Shown here one piece after another: positions 44,532 to 51,757 of a stretch of DNA of 64,000 nt. Both the position numbers and the translations under genes were made by a program. The stretch covers positions 46,898 to 110,897 of the IMG/VR virus record IMGVR_UViG_3300043446_004967; one strand, 5' to 3'. The stretch is from a virus. The notes beneath the pieces were generated by a model, which was given only the letters and a program-made list of their open reading frames with translations, made no database searches and was not told the origin of the DNA. Each line of letters opens with the position of its first letter. Position 1 is the first letter of the stretch.

Positions 44532-45377
44532 TCAGCTTTTCGCGTTTTGGGGAAAATTAAACCCTGAGCTTCGCCAGATTTCGCTGACCGGGCGGTTTCC
44601 GTTATAATCTTCCATCACCCTCGGCAAGTCGCTTATCTTGCGCACGATAGCAAAGGGTTTTCCTTCGCTGTACTCCCGTCTAAAGAAGACTACTTCCTCC
44701 GGTTCCGCGTAGAACAAAGAGTCAGGTTGGTATATCGTGGCGATCTTCTGCACCTCTCGGTCCGCCTGCACTTCCGCGTGTAACGTTTCCCTTAGACAAA
44801 TCTGATCGGCAGGGTAAACCCCTCGTTCGATGTTCTCCGTCATCTGCAAGGCGCCGCCGCTAGGCAACAGGAACCGCAACGCCGCATACGATTCTTCGTC
44901 CGTGTCTCGCAGGCGTGTCGCTAGAGGTACGTCCTTTTCACTTATGCTTAGGGTTTTCGCGCGTGGTTGCGGGCGCTCCGTAGACGAAACGATCTCCGAT
45001 AGGGTCTCCTCCACCACAAAAGTTCCCCCCTCCCACACAATCTTTATGAGATAGATGTGTTTCTTCCGTTGAGGGAGGGCAGGATCATACGGGTCGAGCG
45101 TTTCTAGTATCAGAGAAATATGCGTGCTCCGCGCGCGGCGCGTCTCGCCAAATCCTCTTAAGTTGGCGAAGGACACCATGCCGGCTTCGCCTCCTCGTTC
45201 TTTTACAAGCTCTACCGCAGATCGCCCGGAGGCCAAACTTTGTGCAAACTTGATCGCGTCGAGCAAGGTGGACTTGCCTGTGCCCGTGTCCCCGACTAAG
45301 AAGATCAGCCTAGGAAGGTGCTGCAATGAGGTATTCGCGTGAAGCCTGTAGTTGTACAGGCCGAGGGAAACTATCAT
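44532..45377 (-). CDS. degenerate AAA_21/SMC-like ABC ATPase
   Basis: NYR, GDTGTGKSTLLDAI, ERGG; Walker B and H-loop eroded (ENIERGVYP, TIYQP). Confidence 0.7.
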   Translation of the reverse strand: MIVSLGLYNYRLHANTSLQHLPRLIFLVGDTGTGKSTLLDAIKFAQSLASGRSAVELVKERGGEAGMVSFANLRGFGETRRARSTHISLILETLDPYDPALPQRKKHIYLIKIVWEGGTFVVEETLSEIVSSTERPQPRAKTLSISEKDVPLATRLRDTDEESYAALRFLLPSGGALQMTENIERGVYPADQICLRETLHAEVQADREVQKIATIYQPDSLFYAEPEEVVFFRREYSEGKPFAIVRKISDLPRVMEDYNGNRPVSEIWRSSGFNFPQNAKS

Positions 45378-45844
45378 AACCCGTGCTCTACCTCGTTAAC
45401 GTAAATGTTTGCTTCTAAAAAAAGTTCTATAGCTTTCTGTTGGCTGTCCGCCCATGTACTTGCCTTGTCCCTCTGTGGGAATGTGACGTAGCGCATGCCC
45501 GAGGCTATAATGACTCCAGCGCAGCGTACACACGGCGGTTTTGTCACATAAAGCACACGCGGACGATGGTTCGACCGTAGGCAGCTGAGAATGGCGGAGA
45601 TCTCCGCATGGATCACGATTTGGTTTTTTACCTCCTTGTCGTGCCACCGGTCGTCATCCGCTATTCCGTTTGGAAACCGGTTTACACCATAAAAAGAGTT
45701 TCCCGTCGCCGTCTGCACCACGGCGCCTACTTTATCTCTGGGGTCATGGCTATGGGACTGCGCATAAGAAAAGGCCCCCCGAAGGGGGCCTTCCACGCTG
45801 CGAAAGTGTTCGCTTCCTTTTTTTATAAAGGTGTATCTCTCCAT
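45374..45844 (-). CDS. dCMP deaminase
   Basis: DP..KVGAV, HAE, PCVRC. Confidence 0.92.
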   Translation of the reverse strand: MERYTFIKKGSEHFRSVEGPLRGAFSYAQSHSHDPRDKVGAVVQTATGNSFYGVNRFPNGIADDDRWHDKEVKNQIVIHAEISAILSCLRSNHRPRVLYVTKPPCVRCAGVIIASGMRYVTFPQRDKASTWADSQQKAIELFLEANIYVNEVEHGL

Positions 45845-45848
45845 TAAT

Positions 45849-46163
45849 TTATCTCCACAGTGATATACCTTGTATTTTTTGCTGTTGGATTACAGTGATT
45901 TCTTTATCTACCGCGTCTTCATAGGACATAAAGTACGCGGTTTTTCCGTTTTCAGTGTAGACACCGTTGGGCCATAGAGCCTTCAGCTTATCGTCCTGAA
46001 ACTGGATATAGAATTTTTGTGCCTGTTGACAAAAGAGTATTTCGCTTACTCTTTTGACGTTCCTTGTTCCATGCACCGGCGGTTTAAAGAACCCGTCCTT
46101 TAAGAGGTGCTCGCAATCACCTCCGGGAAGGATACGTAAAACCATTCGTTTCACGACGCGCAT
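45849..46163 (-). CDS. hypothetical protein
   Basis: follows DUF2997 gene; RVSEI motif. Confidence 0.65.
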   Translation of the reverse strand: MRVVKRMVLRILPGGDCEHLLKDGFFKPPVHGTRNVKRVSEILFCQQAQKFYIQFQDDKLKALWPNGVYTENGKTAYFMSYEDAVDKEITVIQQQKIQGISLWR

Positions 46164-46363
46164 CCCGCCTTTACGGTTTCCGTGGAGGTCTGGGTCTGGT
46201 ACATCTCCGGTTTTTCCTGCGCGTCTGTTTGTGCCCCTGAAACATATTTTAGCGCGGCTTCCGTCGCAGCCTTGCAGCCTACCCCTTGGAAGTTTTGTGC
46301 GTCCACTTGGACGTGTTGCCCGTTCGGGCTGACTGTGATTACCAATCTCTTTCCTGCGGTCAT
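46151..46363 (-). CDS. DUF2997-like protein
   Basis: I.VSPNG..V.V....FQG.GC..AT...KPEMY. Confidence 0.8.
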   Translation of the reverse strand: MTAGKRLVITVSPNGQHVQVDAQNFQGVGCKAATEAALKYVSGAQTDAQEKPEMYQTQTSTETVKAGCAS

Positions 46364-46402
46364 TTTATTTTATTACCTTTTTTTATAAGTTAAGCTTTTT
46401 TT

Positions 46403-46478
46403 TGGTTCTCCGGACAGGATTTGAACCTATGACCCGGGCGTTATGAGCGCCTTGCTCTAACCTCTGAGCTACCGGAGA
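46403..46478 (-). tRNA. tRNA with CAU anticodon (probably Ile2, possibly elongator Met)
   Basis: 76-nt cloverleaf TCTCCGG...CTCATAA...GGTTCAAATCC...CCGGAGA-A-CCA; C4-G69/C5-G68 favour Ile2. Confidence 0.92.
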
Positions 46479-46558
46479 GTATAAAGGCGGGGCCGCCGCT
46501 AATCACACTGTTGGCCCCGACTCTTGCCCTCGTCGTCAGACCTCGGGCATCCCCGACT

Positions 46559-48577
46559 TTAGCGGGTTTTGTCGCCCGCGTCAACCGGCGCGGGCTTCGG
46601 CGTTTCAGTTTTGCCTAGCCCTGCGGCGATGCGCTCCATCTCTAAAAAAGCATGGTAGGCGACGTTATCGCTAAACGGGGCGGTCAGCTCATCAAGCTCG
46701 GCGCTAAGCCTCGCTTTTTCCTCCTCCGAGGCGTCTTTTCCTTGTTTTAGAATCTCATAATATTGTTGGGCCGCTTCCTTCATCGCTTGGCGGCGTTTGC
46801 TCATTTGCGGCAGTCCCACACCCATCACGTCTTCGAGGATGTCTTCGATGGGTTTATCCCAGTATTCGCCTCCTGTAGGGTACGGGTAGGCGCAGCCTGT
46901 CTCGATGTGGCGCCCCTCGCAGGTACGATTGTCCTCATGATTGACCTCCTCGTCCCACTTTCTTTTAGCAAGGTCCGACTGCCCGCGCAGTTCATGGGCC
47001 GCATAGACGGCAGCTTGATGGCTAAGCTGGAGCGCGCGCGCCTCCAGCTCCGTGCGCATCTGATGTCGTTCGGCCTCCGACGCAAATCCTCCGTGGTCTA
47101 AGCGGCGGTAGTATTCCTCCGAAACGTCGGCTAGTTTTTGCCGAAGCGCGCTTACTTTCGGCGTCGGTACACCCATAACTTCTTCCGCGATAGCCTCGAT
47201 AGACTCGTCGGCATACACACCGCCGGAAGGTTGAGGGTAGGCAATGCCTTTTCTACAGGAGTAAGGCACGTCCGGATCGTCGTCCTCGTGCTCCCGCTCC
47301 TCAAAATTTTCCTCGGAAGTGGGTTGCGGTTCTTCTTCTCTCGCGTCAGGAATCCCCGCAGCGTATCTTTTCATTTTGAGGAAGGCTATCTCTCCCGGGT
47401 AATCTTTGAACGAGGCGCACAGCCTATCCAGCTCCGCTCCGACGGCCATTTTTTCCTCCTCCGAGAGGGGTTTAACCTTTTCCGCAAGTGTTAGGTACTG
47501 AAGCGCGGTTGCCCTTAGCTTCACTTGCCGCGCGCTTACTTGCGGCAGCCCTATCCCCATGAAGTCTTCGACGATATCCTCTATGGAATACGCGGAAGGG
47601 TCTTCTTCGCGTCTTTCCAGTCGCGTCACGTCGATTGCTTGGCCCGCCGTAAGGGATTGCAGGATAAACGGCGAGTGCCCCGTCGCAATAAATTGAACAG
47701 CGGGGAAAGCTTCTTGCAGCGCGCTCACAATGGTGCGCTGCTCTAAAGGGTGCAGCGAGGTCTCTAGGTCTTCGATCAGAACTACGCCCGGCGTAATCTC
47801 TACAGCTCGTGCGCCCGCGTGGGGGTTTAACCACGCCGCGCGACAAGCTAGGTCTAGCGCTATGGTTAAAACGCTCCTTAACCCTCCCCCTAGCCTGCTA
47901 AGAGGGAACCAGCCCGACGCTTTAAGCTTTACGATAATTTCGGGCGTACCCTCTCGGATCTCCATCACGCGAAGGTCTTCGCACTCCGGCACGCATTGCC
48001 TGACTGCCGTTAATGCGGCGCCCCATGCCGCCGCTATGTCCGGGTAGGCGGAGCTAGGCATTCCCTGTAGGAGGGAGAGTAAAAGGGCCACGGTGGTCTT
48101 CTTTTTATGGAACGGTAAACAGCCGTCGTATGCCTTAGTATAGGGAGGTACCCCCGGCCTTCCCAGTTTTTTTCGCTTGGGCAAAGTGAACGTACCCGGA
48201 GCCGTCCGATAGGTTCCGTACCATGCAATAACAGGCCGGGTTTCCCGCCTGTCGTCCGTCGGCGCGGCTGCGACTAGCGCAGAGGACGGCGCCAAGGATA
48301 AATCCCAACGAAGACGTTGTCCCTTTACGTAGACGCGCGCCTTCATAGCCGTGTGGGGGTCCGTCGGCACGGTATAGCGGGTCTCCCCCGCGCATCCGCA
48401 CAGGTCGGCAAGCAAATAGGATACGGCGTCGAGGACGGAGGTCTTCCCCGCGCCGTTACCCCCGATCAAGTAGTTAAACTGCGGGTGAAATACGATATCC
48501 GCTAAGGCTAATTGCCTAAACGAACGTAGCGATAACCGCTCTATTCTGAACTGATTTTTTGCGTCAGCCGTGCTCAT
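46559..48577 (-). CDS. PtuA/AriA-like ABC ATPase with triplicated C-terminal domain
   Basis: GGNGAGKTSVLDA, LGGG, LIEDLETSLHP, ATGHSP; three (S/P)IE.I.E..MG...P..S units. Confidence 0.85.
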   Translation of the reverse strand: MSTADAKNQFRIERLSLRSFRQLALADIVFHPQFNYLIGGNGAGKTSVLDAVSYLLADLCGCAGETRYTVPTDPHTAMKARVYVKGQRLRWDLSLAPSSALVAAAPTDDRRETRPVIAWYGTYRTAPGTFTLPKRKKLGRPGVPPYTKAYDGCLPFHKKKTTVALLLSLLQGMPSSAYPDIAAAWGAALTAVRQCVPECEDLRVMEIREGTPEIIVKLKASGWFPLSRLGGGLRSVLTIALDLACRAAWLNPHAGARAVEITPGVVLIEDLETSLHPLEQRTIVSALQEAFPAVQFIATGHSPFILQSLTAGQAIDVTRLERREEDPSAYSIEDIVEDFMGIGLPQVSARQVKLRATALQYLTLAEKVKPLSEEEKMAVGAELDRLCASFKDYPGEIAFLKMKRYAAGIPDAREEEPQPTSEENFEEREHEDDDPDVPYSCRKGIAYPQPSGGVYADESIEAIAEEVMGVPTPKVSALRQKLADVSEEYYRRLDHGGFASEAERHQMRTELEARALQLSHQAAVYAAHELRGQSDLAKRKWDEEVNHEDNRTCEGRHIETGCAYPYPTGGEYWDKPIEDILEDVMGVGLPQMSKRRQAMKEAAQQYYEILKQGKDASEEEKARLSAELDELTAPFSDNVAYHAFLEMERIAAGLGKTETPKPAPVDAGDKTR

Positions 48578-48617
48578 ACACAGTATTCCTTATTCTGAAA
48601 AGGAGTTTTCTTATAGA

Positions 48618-48645
48618 AAAAGGCCGCTTTAGGGGCGGCCTTTTC
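48618..48645. terminator. bidirectional intrinsic terminator
   Basis: AAAAGGCCGC-tttaggg-GCGGCCTTTT. Confidence 0.75.
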
Positions 48646-48672
48646 GTTAGTATGTCAGGAAAGACGGGCGGG

Positions 48673-49119
48673 CTAATACCCCGTTTCCGCGTCGATGACA
48701 AGTTGGGTTACACCGTACTCGTCTACGAGACGGTCTAGTACGGTGTAGCCTTTTTCCTGTGCGCCCCGTATCGCGGCTTGCACCGTGTACTCCTGCATCA
48801 AGGGGTCCAACGGAGCCAAGCCTTTTGGGGTGCCTAGCGCCTTCTGGATAATACCGTCCCACGTATCTATGACGGGTACGTAGTAATCCAGCCCGTTTTC
48901 GTCCGTTTCCTTGTCCAGTGCAATGTTATATTTGCACCCCTCGATGTCAATTACATAGGGGCATTGCCTAGACTGACTCGCGTAGTAGGCACGATAAGTG
49001 CCGTTTTCCGTCAACGAGAGGGGGGCAGCCCCTTGGCGTTGGCTCAGCTGGGCAAGCGCTGACCGGAGGTCATTAATGTCAGTAATCTTGACACCGGTTA
49101 CTTTCACGTCGTGGCTCAT
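48673..49119 (-). CDS. DUF1257-like protein
   Basis: MSH...VKITD...L..AL, Y...D.W, L.QEY...A....A...GY. Confidence 0.78.
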   Translation of the reverse strand: MSHDVKVTGVKITDINDLRSALAQLSQRQGAAPLSLTENGTYRAYYASQSRQCPYVIDIEGCKYNIALDKETDENGLDYYVPVIDTWDGIIQKALGTPKGLAPLDPLMQEYTVQAAIRGAQEKGYTVLDRLVDEYGVTQLVIDAETGY

Positions 49120-49164
49120 GTCCGTTCTCGTTCTGTTAGTTTTTCTATAGGTTTGACTGTTTAT

Positions 49165-49842
49165 TTAAAGACGACGGCGCGGCGTAGTGTAGGTGACGGT
49201 TGCCGCGCCCGGGCGTCGCGCTCGCAGTATGCCTTGGGTCGTCGCTTTCCGCAAGGACTTCTCTACGTCGACCACAGTGAACATGCGGTCCCCGAGGAGG
49301 CAAGCCTCGGGGACTAGATCAGGCATGAGCCTGCGGCTGTCCCGCGACAGGGGGAATTGGTCGGCGAATAGCCCGAAGCAGTCCCGCTCTCGGGCAATCT
49401 CCGCTTCGCTTAATAAGGAAAATTTACCCTCAAAGTGGATCGAGTTTCGTGCCGCTTTAGCGTGCCCTGTCGTGCCGCAAACAATACGGCGTAGAGGTGC
49501 GGTTTCCGAAGGCCGCATGACCAGTAGTTTTCTTACGACCTTCGCCTCTTCGCCGAAGTTATTCGCTGCGCCACGGCGGAGTGAAATCACTAATAACGCG
49601 GTGCTCGGGAGATCCAGAGCGATGTGCGCCCAGCTGCCGTGGTGAGCGTTGTACTCGCAGGCCAACGTGTGCAGGCATTTTACCACGGGGAAATGCAGAC
49701 AGTCCTTCTCCACGGATCGGCCCGTTCCTAAGAACGCCCACCTTTTTTTATCCGTATTGTACAGATAGCACAAGATTTCCGCGCGAAAAAACAGGGTAGG
49801 GTCCGTGAAAGACTCTGACCCCTGCATGAACTCAATTAACAT
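49165..49842 (-). CDS. hypothetical protein
   Basis: 225 aa, start overlaps the AAA gene end. Confidence 0.6.
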   Translation of the reverse strand: MLIEFMQGSESFTDPTLFFRAEILCYLYNTDKKRWAFLGTGRSVEKDCLHFPVVKCLHTLACEYNAHHGSWAHIALDLPSTALLVISLRRGAANNFGEEAKVVRKLLVMRPSETAPLRRIVCGTTGHAKAARNSIHFEGKFSLLSEAEIARERDCFGLFADQFPLSRDSRRLMPDLVPEACLLGDRMFTVVDVEKSLRKATTQGILRARRPGAATVTYTTPRRRL

Positions 49843-51757
49843 GTCGTCTTACCTTTGTCGAGAGGGTTCGGGGAGACAGAAGGCGTTTACTCTGCGCGAC
49901 AGGGGCAGGGGATGGCGCGGCTTCTTCAGGCTCCGAGGCGCGCCGCGCGTGCCGGGAGGCCCAGTTCCGCATCTCGGCAATCCGCTCGGGGAAAGCTTGT
50001 GATTGAGGCGTCATCTGCGCCGCTTGGCGCAAAACGTGTTCCTTCGTCACGGAGGGGCTTTTTGCGTAGAAGGCTTCCTTTATCGCTTCCTTTAGCACGC
50101 CTTCGAGTTCCGCGCCGGAGAAACCCTCGGTCGCCGCCGCAATTTCCTCGTAGTCTTTGTCAGATAACCTGTGCTCCCCTTCGGTTTTCTCTAGGTGGAC
50201 CCGCAAAATACTGCGGCGTTCCGCCGAGGTGGGATAGTCCACCGACCAGCACCCGTCCAGCCGTCCGGGCCTAAGCAGTTCCGGCGGCAGCCCGTCCACG
50301 CGGTTGGCGGACATGACGACGAAGACGGGCGACCTTTCTACATCCCGCTCTTGCAGCCAGGTGAGCAAGGTGCCGAAGACGCGAGAGGAGGTTCCGCCGT
50401 CGCGTTCCCCGCCCTGTTGTCCGAAGCCCTTGTCCACTTCGTCTAAGAGCAGCACGCAGGGGGCCATAGCCTCCACGGTTTTAAGCGCGGCTCTGATGTT
50501 TTGTTCGGATTGCCCGACCAAAGAACCATAGGTTTTCCCTATGTCTAGTTTTACGCAAGTAAAACCCAGTTCTCCCGCCGTCGCTTTGGCGATTAAGCTC
50601 TTTCCCGTCCCCGGAGGGCCGCAGACGAGAATCCCCCTAGGTCGAGCAATGCCGTAGGCTTTCGCGGCTTCCGTATACGCCTCTTTCTGTTGCCGCAGCC
50701 ACAGTTTTAGGCGTTCTAGCCCTCCCACAGCCTCAATGGCGACAGGCGGCATGAGTTCCAGCAGCCCGCTTTTTTTTAAGACCTGCGTCTTGTAGCTGAC
50801 GACGTCTTGCGCCAGTTTCTCCGCACTAAAGGACGCCCCTTCGCAGAGGTTGTCGAGTGTGAGTCTTAACGCCCACGCGAAAGCGGTCTCCGCCTCGGTA
50901 AAGGTCAACCCGAGGGCGCTACCTATTAGCCGCTCTAGCGGCAGTCCCGTCAGCCCTGCCGCCGGGTTCTCGGTCGTACCGGAAGCGTCGGTTACTTCCG
51001 CCTGTTCTGCCAGCGGCAACCAGCTATGTAGGTATAGCTCTTTCCCGCACGGGAGCGGGGCATCTAAGATATATACGTTCTCGGACAACCCTTCTGGGAT
51101 GACGTATTCCCTAGGCAGCAGAAGGACCATAGTTTTGCCCTTCCCGGGGTCGTATTCCATGAAGTTAATGCTACAGTTTTTAATGAACTGTCGGATGACC
51201 GGCTGGTCTAGGAAGGGGTACATCCCCTCCAAGATGTACAGGAACCCTGCGGGAACATGCGGGGATGCCCCTACCCCCGGGGCCGTCGTCGGCGCCCCGA
51301 GTTCGATAACCCTTCCTTGCCCGTTCTCACTGCGTTGGGGCTGTGCAGGCGACGCCGCAGACACAGGCCTTGAGAGGTCATAAGGAGGCGTATTGCCCTC
51401 CGCCGCCAGCGCGGCCAAAATAGCTTCCGGGCCTTTTTTTGTGCCGTCGTAGGGGCCGACTCCTTGTATAATTTTTTCCGTCTTGTCTGCGCCGCAAATG
51501 TAGTTAACTCTCGCACAGCCTCGCGCAATGTCCCAGACGCAGGTGCAGAGGTCGCTTTGCACGCCCGCCAGCGAGACTTGGTGGCGTAGCCTCCCCGGTT
51601 CCGCCGTTCGCACACCGATAACGGGAATGTTGGCCCGCATCGCTCGGCCTAAAGCGTCTAAGAACTCCTCCGTCGCCGTAGCACCGTCTAAAAATGGGTT
51701 CACCCATTCAGGTTCCCTTGGGCGCCGTCCTCCGGCCCCCCGATTCGTGCTGCTCAT
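49832..51757 (-). CDS. Ycf46-like AAA+ ATPase
   Basis: VGGLERLK.WL, GPPGTGKSLIAKA, LLDEVDKG, LPPELLRPGRLD, MRNWA..AR.AS. Confidence 0.92.
   Translation of the reverse strand: MSSTNRGAGGRRPREPEWVNPFLDGATATEEFLDALGRAMRANIPVIGVRTAEPGRLRHQVSLAGVQSDLCTCVWDIARGCARVNYICGADKTEKIIQGVGPYDGTKKGPEAILAALAAEGNTPPYDLSRPVSAASPAQPQRSENGQGRVIELGAPTTAPGVGASPHVPAGFLYILEGMYPFLDQPVIRQFIKNCSINFMEYDPGKGKTMVLLLPREYVIPEGLSENVYILDAPLPCGKELYLHSWLPLAEQAEVTDASGTTENPAAGLTGLPLERLIGSALGLTFTEAETAFAWALRLTLDNLCEGASFSAEKLAQDVVSYKTQVLKKSGLLELMPPVAIEAVGGLERLKLWLRQQKEAYTEAAKAYGIARPRGILVCGPPGTGKSLIAKATAGELGFTCVKLDIGKTYGSLVGQSEQNIRAALKTVEAMAPCVLLLDEVDKGFGQQGGERDGGTSSRVFGTLLTWLQERDVERSPVFVVMSANRVDGLPPELLRPGRLDGCWSVDYPTSAERRSILRVHLEKTEGEHRLSDKDYEEIAAATEGFSGAELEGVLKEAIKEAFYAKSPSVTKEHVLRQAAQMTPQSQAFPERIAEMRNWASRHARRASEPEEAAPSPAPVAQSKRLLSPRTLSTKVRRHVN

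What the first reader, a model, noticed from the sequence alone, without database searches (positions are those of the whole stretch)
46559..48577. Orphan Septu/PtuA-like ATPase with altered Walker B and three copies of the C-terminal domain
Seen: Walker B reads LIEDLETSLHP instead of LIDE.D.HLHP. The C-terminal unit (S/P)IE.I.E..MG...P..S.R.......Y is repeated three times (about 47590-47355, 47207-46990, 46855-46615), and two copies are preceded by AYP.P.GG.Y. No HNH or TOPRIM partner gene is adjacent. Known: PtuA-type ATPases partner a nuclease in defence systems, with the C-terminal region implicated in partner binding. Inference: a captured defence subunit turned into a multivalent decoy that sequesters the host nuclease.
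Basis: partly seen in the sequence, partly recalled or inferred. Interest (0 to 1): 0.72.

Follow-up and report, generated by a model that had tools for sequence, protein, structure and literature searches.

The report
Phage PtuA with three nuclease-docking modules
A 111-kb lytic-type phage carries a lone, rewired copy of the ATPase half (PtuA) of the bacterial Septu anti-phage system, with its nuclease-docking tail present three times and no nuclease gene of its own. That makes it a strong but untested candidate for a decoy that traps the host's Septu nuclease.

Summary
ORF 46559-48577 (-) encodes a 672-aa PtuA homologue (PADLOC PtuA E 1e-86; best structural matches are solved PtuA chains).

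- **Altered ATP site.** Walker B reads I-E-D-L-E-T-S, against D-E-x-D-x-H, which is invariant in 56 cellular homologues. The signature LSDG has become LGGG. Walker A and the H-loop are intact.
- **Tripled tail.** The C-terminal extension (CTE) occurs three times, joined by disordered acidic linkers. Published structures show this module docks the PtuB nuclease. Each copy matches a profile built only from cellular CTEs (E 7e-21, 5e-15, 2e-37).
- **Uneven divergence.** The last copy is as cellular-like as cellular CTEs are to each other. The ATPase sits on a very long branch.
- **No partner.** Every cellular homologue with room downstream has ptuB next to it. The complete phage genome has none, even by an unfiltered profile search.
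- **Insertion.** The gene plus a tRNA(CAU) sits between two genes that are adjacent in a related phage.
- **Rarity.** Only six distinct relatives exist among 15 billion proteins; two of them also have three CTEs.

Most likely (about 45%) it is an anti-Septu subunit mimic that captures host PtuB. No binding or inhibition was tested. This scan has noted other orphan phage PtuAs on other DNA, none described with a multiplied CTE.

The parts
46559..48577 (-). ptuA-like ORF, 672 aa (the public gene call P0002 covers only aa 284-672)
   Evidence: full length supported by P0001 and P0078
47627..48577 (-). ABC-type ATPase domain, aa 1-317
   Evidence: Pfam AAA_15/AAA_21; AF2 pLDDT mostly above 85; Foldseek top hits are PtuA chains
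48437..48463 (-). Walker A G-G-N-G-A-G-K-T-S, intact
   Evidence: G39, N41, G42, G44, K45, T46 as in cellular PtuA
47876..47893 (-). degenerate ABC signature, L-G-G-G-L-R in place of L-S-D-G-x-R
47747..47785 (-). altered Walker B / D-loop, V-V-L-I-E-D-L-E-T-S-L-H-P
47666..47683 (-). H-loop T-G-H-S-P-F, intact
47345..47593 (-). CTE copy R1 (aa 329-411), fused directly to the ATPase; keeps 23 of 33 conserved CTE positions
47210..47344 (-). linker 1 (aa 412-456), disordered, 29% Asp+Glu, ends in the A-Y-P-Q-P-S-G-G motif
46985..47209 (-). CTE copy R2 (aa 457-531), most diverged; keeps 17 of 33 positions and has lost the last-helix signature
46859..46984 (-). linker 2 (aa 532-573), disordered, ends in the A-Y-P-Y-P-T-G-G motif
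46604..46858 (-). CTE copy R3 (aa 574-658), ancestral-like; keeps 30 of 33 positions; up to 68% identical to cellular CTEs
48615..48640 (-). intrinsic-terminator-like hairpin (GGCCGC-7 nt-GCGGCC then a T run) between the DUF1257-like gene and ptuA; read by eye, not listed by the scan
   Evidence: sequence; one search did not list it
48587..48590 (-). AGGA ribosome-binding site, 9 nt before the ATG
46403..46478 (-). tRNA(CAU) immediately downstream, part of the same inserted segment; one of only two tRNAs in the genome
48673..49119 (-). DUF1257-like gene, upstream border of the insertion
46151..46363 (-). DUF2997-like gene, downstream border of the insertion

Best explanation
The gene is a PtuA captured from a cellular Septu (PtuA-PtuB) system and kept by a small group of phages as an anti-Septu subunit mimic.

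**Shown**
- It is a full PtuA fold with intact ATP-binding motifs.
- Its Walker B / D-loop and signature motifs are rewritten.
- It carries three copies of the C-terminal extension on flexible linkers.
- The phage has no PtuB.
- The gene is an insertion in the phage genome.

**Inferred**
- During infection the protein binds ATP but hydrolyses it poorly.
- Its CTE modules dock the helical C-terminal domain of the host's PtuB nuclease.
- PtuB is thereby pulled away from, or recaptured after release by, the host's own PtuA sensor complex.
- PtuB is then held in the ATP-bound, nuclease-off state.
- Three docking modules per chain raise capacity or avidity. Because the copies have diverged, they may also widen the range of PtuB variants covered.
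For: 1. **The repeated unit is the PtuB-binding module.** A pair of PtuA CTEs sandwiches the PtuB C-terminal domain in a nine-helix bundle, and the CTE is needed for toxicity (PMC12819146). Interface mutants abolish PtuAB toxicity (PMC13376987).
2. **ATP binding is reported to inhibit PtuAB nuclease across Septu systems** (PMC12640716). Here Walker A and the H-loop are kept, while five positions around Walker B that are 100% invariant in cellular PtuA, plus the signature Ser, are changed in all clade members.
3. **The domains have diverged unevenly.** R3 is 57.6% (median) identical to 119 cellular CTEs; cellular CTEs are 53.1% identical to each other. The ATPase is 35.8% identical, against 42.8% between cellular ATPases. 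Only 13 of 544 cellular pairs reach this CTE/ATPase ratio. The clade stem is 2.73 substitutions per site, against a median cellular pair distance of 2.22.
4. **All three copies are recognisable CTEs** (68, 49 and 121 bits against a cellular-only HMM). Orthologous copies are conserved at 62-75% in P0001 and P0078, against 45% in the linker.
5. **The partner is missing only in the phage.** Every cellular locus with 700 nt or more downstream has PtuB (PDLC00315, HNH) directly after ptuA. The complete phage genome (127-bp terminal repeat) has no PtuB, HNH, HNH_4 or OLD-TOPRIM; the best unfiltered HMM hit has E 0.25.
6. **It sits where accessory genes sit.** It lies between DUF1257-like and DUF2997-like genes, which are adjacent (overlapping by 1 nt) in Aeromonas phage HJ05.
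7. **The phage invests in counter-defence and looks lytic.** It has a HAD-Prs-Nampt-Macro operon and no tyrosine integrase.
8. **The modules look independent.** The CTE-only AF2 model has pTM 0.33 with confident individual helical units, which fits beads on a string.
Against: - No binding, co-fold or inhibition data were obtained.
- The host is unknown, so a Septu system of this subtype in the host is not shown.
- PtuB needs PtuA to be active, so a PtuA-like binder could in principle support rather than block it.
- R1 and R2 keep only 23 and 17 of 33 conserved CTE positions, and R2 has lost the last-helix signature. They may no longer bind PtuB.
- Relatives P0003, P0004, P0080 and P0082 have a single CTE, so triplication is not essential to the clade.
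- A Glu-Asp Walker B might still support some hydrolysis.
- The stand-alone E. coli Septu PtuAB is reported to lack ATPase activity anyway.
Confidence: 0.45

Rival explanations
1. Poison subunit. The phage protein co-assembles with the host's PtuA through the ATPase heads or through CTE-CTE pairing. This yields mixed oligomers that cannot sense infection or release active PtuB.
For: PtuA drives assembly into dimers, tetramers or hexamers, and ATP binding at the dimer interface is needed for this. The changed motifs (signature, D-loop) lie at the ABC dimer interface (placement from general ABC-ATPase knowledge).
Against: The ATPase domain is the most diverged part (stem 2.73 substitutions per site; about 36% identity), which argues against it fitting a host PtuA head. 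This reading does not explain why the CTE was multiplied.
Confidence: 0.12
2. Phage-side weapon. The protein is the ATPase of a phage-borne exclusion or defence system. It uses a non-HNH effector encoded elsewhere, or borrows a resident PtuB, to block competing phages.
For: Phages and prophages do carry AAA_15/21 ATPases and whole Septu pairs (viral loci L001, L002, L004 carry PtuA plus PtuB). A second degenerate AAA_15/21-like ORF lies 1.2 kb downstream.
Against: There is no nuclease partner in the genome. PtuA alone is non-toxic and inactive in published assays. The catalytic motifs are altered. No tyrosine integrase was found, so the phage is probably lytic.
Confidence: 0.12
3. Re-purposed scaffold. 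The ATPase and its helical modules now serve a phage process unrelated to Septu, such as replication or repair, or recruitment of phage proteins.
For: The gene sits at the head of the replication module (AAA ATPase, DnaB-like helicase, DNA polymerase). The ATPase has diverged greatly.
Against: R3 has stayed as similar to cellular CTEs as they are to each other. That is hard to explain if its ligand were no longer a cellular-type PtuB. The gene is absent from this position in the one related phage whose module could be compared (HJ05).
Confidence: 0.2
4. Decaying remnant of a captured Septu operon with no current function.
For: The partner is lost and the motifs are altered.
Against: The frame of 672 codons is intact. 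The same changes and the same three-copy layout are kept in proteins only 73% identical. Domains are conserved above linkers (82%, 64%, 62% and 75% against 45%). DNA similarity between copies is low, so the duplications are old and have been maintained.
Confidence: 0.05

Closest known systems
PtuA of stand-alone Septu, PADLOC subtype PDLC00278 paired with PtuB PDLC00315 (e.g. Hafnia paralvei ATCC 29927, locus L054); solved E. coli PtuA 8EE4/8EEA
   Same: Same fold and domain order (ABC ATPase head, then helical C-terminal extension). Walker A, H-loop and the CTE sequence signature are conserved.
   Different: Phage-borne and partnerless. Walker B is D-E to E-D, with D-loop, His and Trp changes, and the signature LSDG is LGGG. 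There are three CTEs instead of one, with long acidic disordered linkers. The ATPase lies on a very long branch.
Retron type I-A PtuA (Ec78/Eco7, Ec83/Eco4; e.g. 9NNB, 9KJX)
   Same: Top Foldseek matches. The same PtuB docking by C-terminal helices is described in these structures.
   Different: No N-terminal extension or helical flap, and no retron RT or ncRNA. About 20% identity.
Phage orphan antitoxin-like counter-defence (DarG-like enzymes against DarTG1, PMC11825919)
   Same: The concept matches: a phage keeps only the non-toxic half of a two-gene defence module and uses it against the toxic half (title and abstract).
   Different: A different family and chemistry. That case is shown by experiment; this one is not.
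Known anti-Septu strategies: phage tRNA-Tyr supply, SegB-driven tRNA amplification, Anhur and Svarog proteins
   Same: The same presumed target system. A phage tRNA gene lies right next to this gene.
   Different: Neither review read here (PMC13728456; EVADES preprint) describes a PtuA homologue as a Septu inhibitor, and Anhur and Svarog have no reported direct interaction with Septu proteins. The adjacent tRNA here is CAU, not Tyr.

Membership tests
PtuA protein family (by descent) | Full-length match to PtuA profiles and to solved PtuA structures | tested here: met
   PDLC00278 E 1e-86 over profile 1-51 and 136-432; phmmer 8EE4 E 8e-25; Foldseek top hits are all PtuA, E 1e-18
PtuA protein family (by descent) | ABC-type Walker A and H-loop | tested here: met
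   G39, N41, G42, G44, K45, T46 and H301, S302, P303, F304 identical to the cellular consensus
PtuA protein family (by descent) | Canonical Walker B D-E, D-loop Asp and L-S-D-G signature | tested here: not met
   E269, D270, E272, S274 and G230, G231, where 56 cellular homologues are 98-100% D, E, D, H and S (D231 not scored); ED is found only in this clade among 306 sequences
PtuA protein family (by descent) | C-terminal helical extension (PtuB-docking module) | tested here: met
   Present three times; 68, 49 and 121 bits against the cellular CTE HMM
Septu defence system (PtuA + PtuB) | ptuB (HNH nuclease) directly downstream of ptuA | tested here: not met
   A tRNA and a DUF2997-like gene follow. 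No PF01844, PF13395 or PDLC00315 hit in the whole genome at E up to 10, and my own PtuB HMM with filters off gives a best E of 0.25. The cellular comparison set has PtuB in every locus with room
Septu defence system (PtuA + PtuB) | Confers defence or abortive infection | not testable with these tools
   Needs plating assays
Phage anti-defence protein (subunit mimic / decoy) | Phage-encoded, in a variable accessory position | tested here: met
   Complete 110,897-bp phage genome with tail, DNA polymerase and helicase genes; inserted between genes that are adjacent in phage HJ05
Phage anti-defence protein (subunit mimic / decoy) | Binds its defence target (PtuB) and inhibits the system | not testable with these tools
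   No multimer prediction or wet assay is available here

The most novel reading that the evidence does not exclude
This would be the first protein inhibitor of Septu with a defined mechanism. It would be a catalytically locked PtuA mimic that displays three diverged PtuB-docking modules on flexible acidic linkers, acting as a multivalent and possibly multi-specific trap for the host nuclease. It would be delivered as one cassette with a tRNA gene. It would also be one example of a wider, unrecognised class of phage-borne orphan PtuAs, some with a dead ATPase and a kept CTE, others with a live ATPase and no CTE.
Probability: 0.4. Interest if true: 0.8.

Novelty: new variant of a known kind. 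Interest (0 to 1): 0.7.

Why it matters
- **Septu has no known direct inhibitor mechanism.** Septu and the retron-linked PtuAB modules are widespread. The known phage escapes are indirect (tRNA supply), or are proteins with no known mode of action.
- **A useful tool.** A natural PtuA that keeps and multiplies only the nuclease-docking module would give a ready-made probe of how PtuB is held and released.
- **A search rule.** It suggests looking for counter-defence genes among orphan halves of two-gene defence systems in phages that have a degraded catalytic site but a conserved partner interface.
- **A worked example.** It shows domain multiplication as a route to a multivalent inhibitor.

Tried and rejected
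- **Genomic context of the close relatives (P0001, P0003, P0004, P0078, P0080).** Both metagenome scans and two viral scans found none of them. So there is no synteny or dN/dS for the clade.
- **A hidden PtuB or PtuB C-terminal-domain mimic in the phage.** The only marginal hit (genome 12756-12983, E 0.058) is an Arg/Lys-rich stretch of an out-of-frame segment with no start codon. I rejected it.
- **Mapping published PtuB-contact residues onto the repeats.** The CTE alone finds no solved PtuA by sequence, so residue-level mapping was not possible.
- **An intramolecular nine-helix bundle made of the three CTEs.** AF2 gives no confident packing (pTM 0.33), so this is neither supported nor excluded.
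- **Host inference from the nearest cellular CTEs.** The best hits scatter across Endozoicomonas, ANME archaea and others, so they say nothing about the host.
- **Recent duplication.** Rejected, because the copies share only short 72-77% DNA patches and the three-copy layout is shared by proteins 73% identical.
- **Foreign base composition.** Not seen. The gene's GC3 of 0.62 lies within the range of its neighbours.

Full report
**What is there**

The window is the last 64 kb of a 110,897-bp virus record with an exact 127-bp terminal repeat, so the genome is probably complete. It is a tailed phage:
- It has tail and tail-fibre proteins, a DNA polymerase, a DnaB-like helicase and a methyltransferase.
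- It has no tyrosine integrase.
- It is only distantly related, through its AAA ATPase gene, to 79-110-kb phages of Agrobacterium, Rhizobium, Rhodobacter, Aeromonas and Pseudomonas.

ORF 46559-48577 (-) is one open frame of 672 codons. It has an AGGA 9 nt before the ATG and follows a terminator-like hairpin. The public gene call for this record (P0002, 389 aa) starts at Val284. Homologues P0001 (632 aa) and P0078 (676 aa) align from residue 1, so the long reading is right.

**Family**

- The protein matches PADLOC PtuA models at E 1e-86, covering the N-terminal head, the core and the C-terminal part. It also matches Pfam AAA_21, AAA_15 and SMC_N.
- The best solved relatives by sequence and by fold are PtuA of E. 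coli Septu (8EE4/8EEA) and of retrons Ec78 and Ec83.
- The AF2 model (pLDDT 75.7) shows a confident ABC ATPase head followed by three helical units. These are separated by disordered segments at 415-458 and 549-575.

**The altered ATP site**

I aligned the protein with 56 cellular homologues. The motif after the Walker B strand is D-E-x-D-x-H-L-H-P-x-W-Q in the cellular proteins, and D, E, D, H and W are each 100% conserved.
- The window protein and its three close relatives in that alignment have E-D-x-E-x-(S/C)-L-H-P-x-(E/R/A)-Q.
- The signature Ser (98% conserved) is Gly.
- Walker A and the H-loop are unchanged.
- Among 306 PtuA-family sequences gathered here, 278 have D-E, and E-D is found only in this clade.
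- From general ABC-ATPase knowledge, this pattern predicts that nucleotide binding is kept and that hydrolysis or head-to-head closure is impaired. That prediction is an inference.

**The triplication**

| Copy | Residues | Bits vs cellular CTE profile | E-value | Conserved positions kept (of 33) |
|---|---|---|---|---|
| R1 | 329-411 | 68 | 7e-21 | 23 |
| R2 | 457-531 | 49 | 5e-15 | 17 |
| R3 | 574-658 | 121 | 2e-37 | 30 |

- The profile was built only from 125 cellular C-terminal extensions. The 33 positions are those conserved in at least 70% of cellular copies.
- Pairwise similarity is significant: R1/R3 50% identity (E 2e-23) and R2/R3 40% (E 3e-20).
- R2 has lost the signature of the last helix.
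- The AYPxPxGG motif before R2 and R3 is the ancestral A-x-P-G-P-G motif that precedes the single cellular copy.
- Of 228 PtuA-like proteins examined, 206 have exactly one copy. Only the window protein, P0078 and P0001 have three.
- DNA similarity between the copies is limited to short 72-77% patches, and the layout is shared by proteins only 73% identical. The duplications are therefore old and have been maintained.
- Between the window protein and P0001, identity is 82% in the ATPase, 64% in R1, 62% in R2 and 75% in R3, but 45% in linker 1.
- A model of the C-terminal 355 residues alone has confident helices but pTM 0.33. There is no fixed packing of the three units.

**What the repeated unit does in known systems**

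[quoted passage not shown] A pair of CTEs from one PtuA dimer sandwiches one PtuB in a nine-helix bundle, and the CTE is critical for toxicity (PMC12819146).
- Mutating the predicted interface abolishes PtuAB toxicity. Neither protein alone is toxic or active (PMC13376987).
- ATP binding is reported to inhibit the PtuAB nuclease across Septu systems (PMC12640716).

**Partner and context**

- In 80 cellular loci holding homologues of this subtype, every locus with at least 700 nt downstream encodes a protein of about 235 aa directly after ptuA. That protein is PtuB (PDLC00315, E about 1e-78; Pfam HNH).
- The phage genome has no match to PF01844, PF13395, PDLC00315 (E up to 10) or OLD-type TOPRIM. 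A profile I built from 65 of those PtuBs, run with all filters off on the six-frame translation, gives nothing better than E 0.25. A marginal hit to the PtuB C-terminal part is a basic out-of-frame stretch.
- Downstream of the gene lie a tRNA(CAU), one of only two tRNAs in the genome, and a DUF2997-like gene. Upstream lies a DUF1257-like gene.
- In Aeromonas phage HJ05 the homologous AAA-ATPase module has its DUF1257-like and DUF2997-like genes overlapping by one base. The ptuA-like gene and the tRNA are therefore an insertion into a conserved module.
- Elsewhere the phage carries a HAD-Prs-Nampt-Macro operon of the NAD-reconstitution type, so it invests in counter-defence.

**Evolution**

- Searches of 5.8 billion clusters and 1.84 billion representatives find only six distinct relatives of the window protein. 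After them, scores fall from 689 to 227 bits.
- On a tree of the ATPase domain the clade is monophyletic (support 100). Its stem is 2.73 substitutions per site, longer than the median path between two cellular PtuAs (2.22).
- In contrast, R3 is 57.6% (median) identical to cellular CTEs, and these are 53.1% identical to each other. The ATPase is 35.8% identical, against 42.8% between cellular ATPases. Only 13 of 544 cellular pairs show as high a CTE/ATPase ratio.
- The module that binds PtuB has thus been held close to the cellular form while the enzyme drifted.
- The single-CTE relatives (P0003, P0004, P0080, P0082) keep a vestige of the first R1 helix (S-L-E-D-A-T) directly after the ATPase, followed by the acidic linker. 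This suggests they arose by deletion from a multi-copy form. Copy number is therefore dynamic.

**Interpretation**

The best reading, at about 45%, is an anti-Septu subunit mimic. It would bind ATP, hydrolyse it poorly, and use its CTE modules to capture host PtuB in an inactive state.

Rivals:
- a poison subunit that co-assembles with host PtuA (12%);
- a phage-side exclusion ATPase with an unknown effector (12%);
- a scaffold re-used for phage biology (20%);
- a decaying remnant (5%).

Main weaknesses:
- There is no binding or inhibition evidence.
- The host is unknown.
- R1 and R2 have diverged.
- Single-copy relatives exist.
- PtuB needs PtuA for activity, so a binder is not automatically an inhibitor.

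**Comparison with the known**

- By descent this is a PtuA. It is not part of a Septu system, because the partner test fails, and it lacks the canonical Walker B and signature motifs.
- The closest concept is the orphan antitoxin-like counter-defence of T4-like phages against DarTG1 (PMC11825919).
- Reviews of anti-defence list only tRNA-based escape, and two proteins without a known mechanism, for Septu.
- Notes from this scan report other orphan phage PtuAs on other genomes. These are unchecked leads. I did see one such case myself: L003 has intact motifs but no CTE and no PtuB.
- I also saw two further lineages, P0186 and P0194, with dead-looking ATPase motifs and a well-kept single CTE.
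- None of these has a multiplied CTE.

**Limits**

Noticed in passing
window 44532-45377 (-): A 281-aa ORF 1.2 kb downstream. The AAA_15/21 ATPase fold spans its whole length (Atlas TM about 0.8 to 390-400-aa ATPases), but only the Walker A head is detectable by sequence, with no Walker B or signature. It is a second degenerate defence-type ABC ATPase.
   Followed up: partly
genome 39169-39939 (+) = L097:9170-9940: A 256-aa ORF whose N-terminus looks like an ABC-ATPase head without a Walker A. It has no Pfam hit and lies just after the NAD-reconstitution-like operon.
   Followed up: partly
L097:5243-8524 (genome 35242-38523): A four-gene operon, HAD phosphatase - Prs-like - Nampt-like - Macro domain, of the NARP1-type NAD+ reconstitution (counter-defence) kind.
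   Followed up: partly
L097:14475-15380 (genome 44474-45379): A 301-aa pentapeptide-repeat protein (Pfam E 1e-66). Proteins of this kind can mimic DNA, so it may be another counter-defence gene.
   Followed up: no
window 46403-46478 (-): tRNA(CAU) directly after the ptuA-like gene, encoding its own CCA end. Its anticodon stem lacks the three G-C pairs of initiator tRNA. Whether it is elongator Met or Ile2 was not resolved. Septu and PtuAB are known to cleave tRNA-Tyr, so the juxtaposition may or may not be meaningful.
   Followed up: partly
L003:9995-11077 (IMG/VR contig of 100.6 kb): Another phage-borne orphan PtuA-like ATPase. It has intact Walker A, LSDG, Walker B and H-loop but ends right after the H-loop, with no CTE and no PtuB. 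This is the mirror image of the present case.
   Followed up: partly
proteins P0186 (365 aa) and P0194 (409 aa): Two other PtuA lineages with dead-looking ATPase motifs: Walker B I-E-E-L-E or I-D-Y-L-E, H-loop His replaced by Tyr or Gln, and the signature lost. Each keeps a well-conserved single CTE (95-98 bits). Their genomic context is unknown.
   Followed up: partly
window 46151-51757 (-): A conserved phage module, AAA ATPase (phrog_8638) - about 210-aa protein - DUF1257-like - DUF2997-like, shared with Aeromonas phage HJ05. Its function is unknown.
   Followed up: partly
window 45374-45844 (-): A dCMP/cytidine deaminase gene whose stop overlaps the start of the 281-aa degenerate ATPase ORF by 4 nt.
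   Followed up: no
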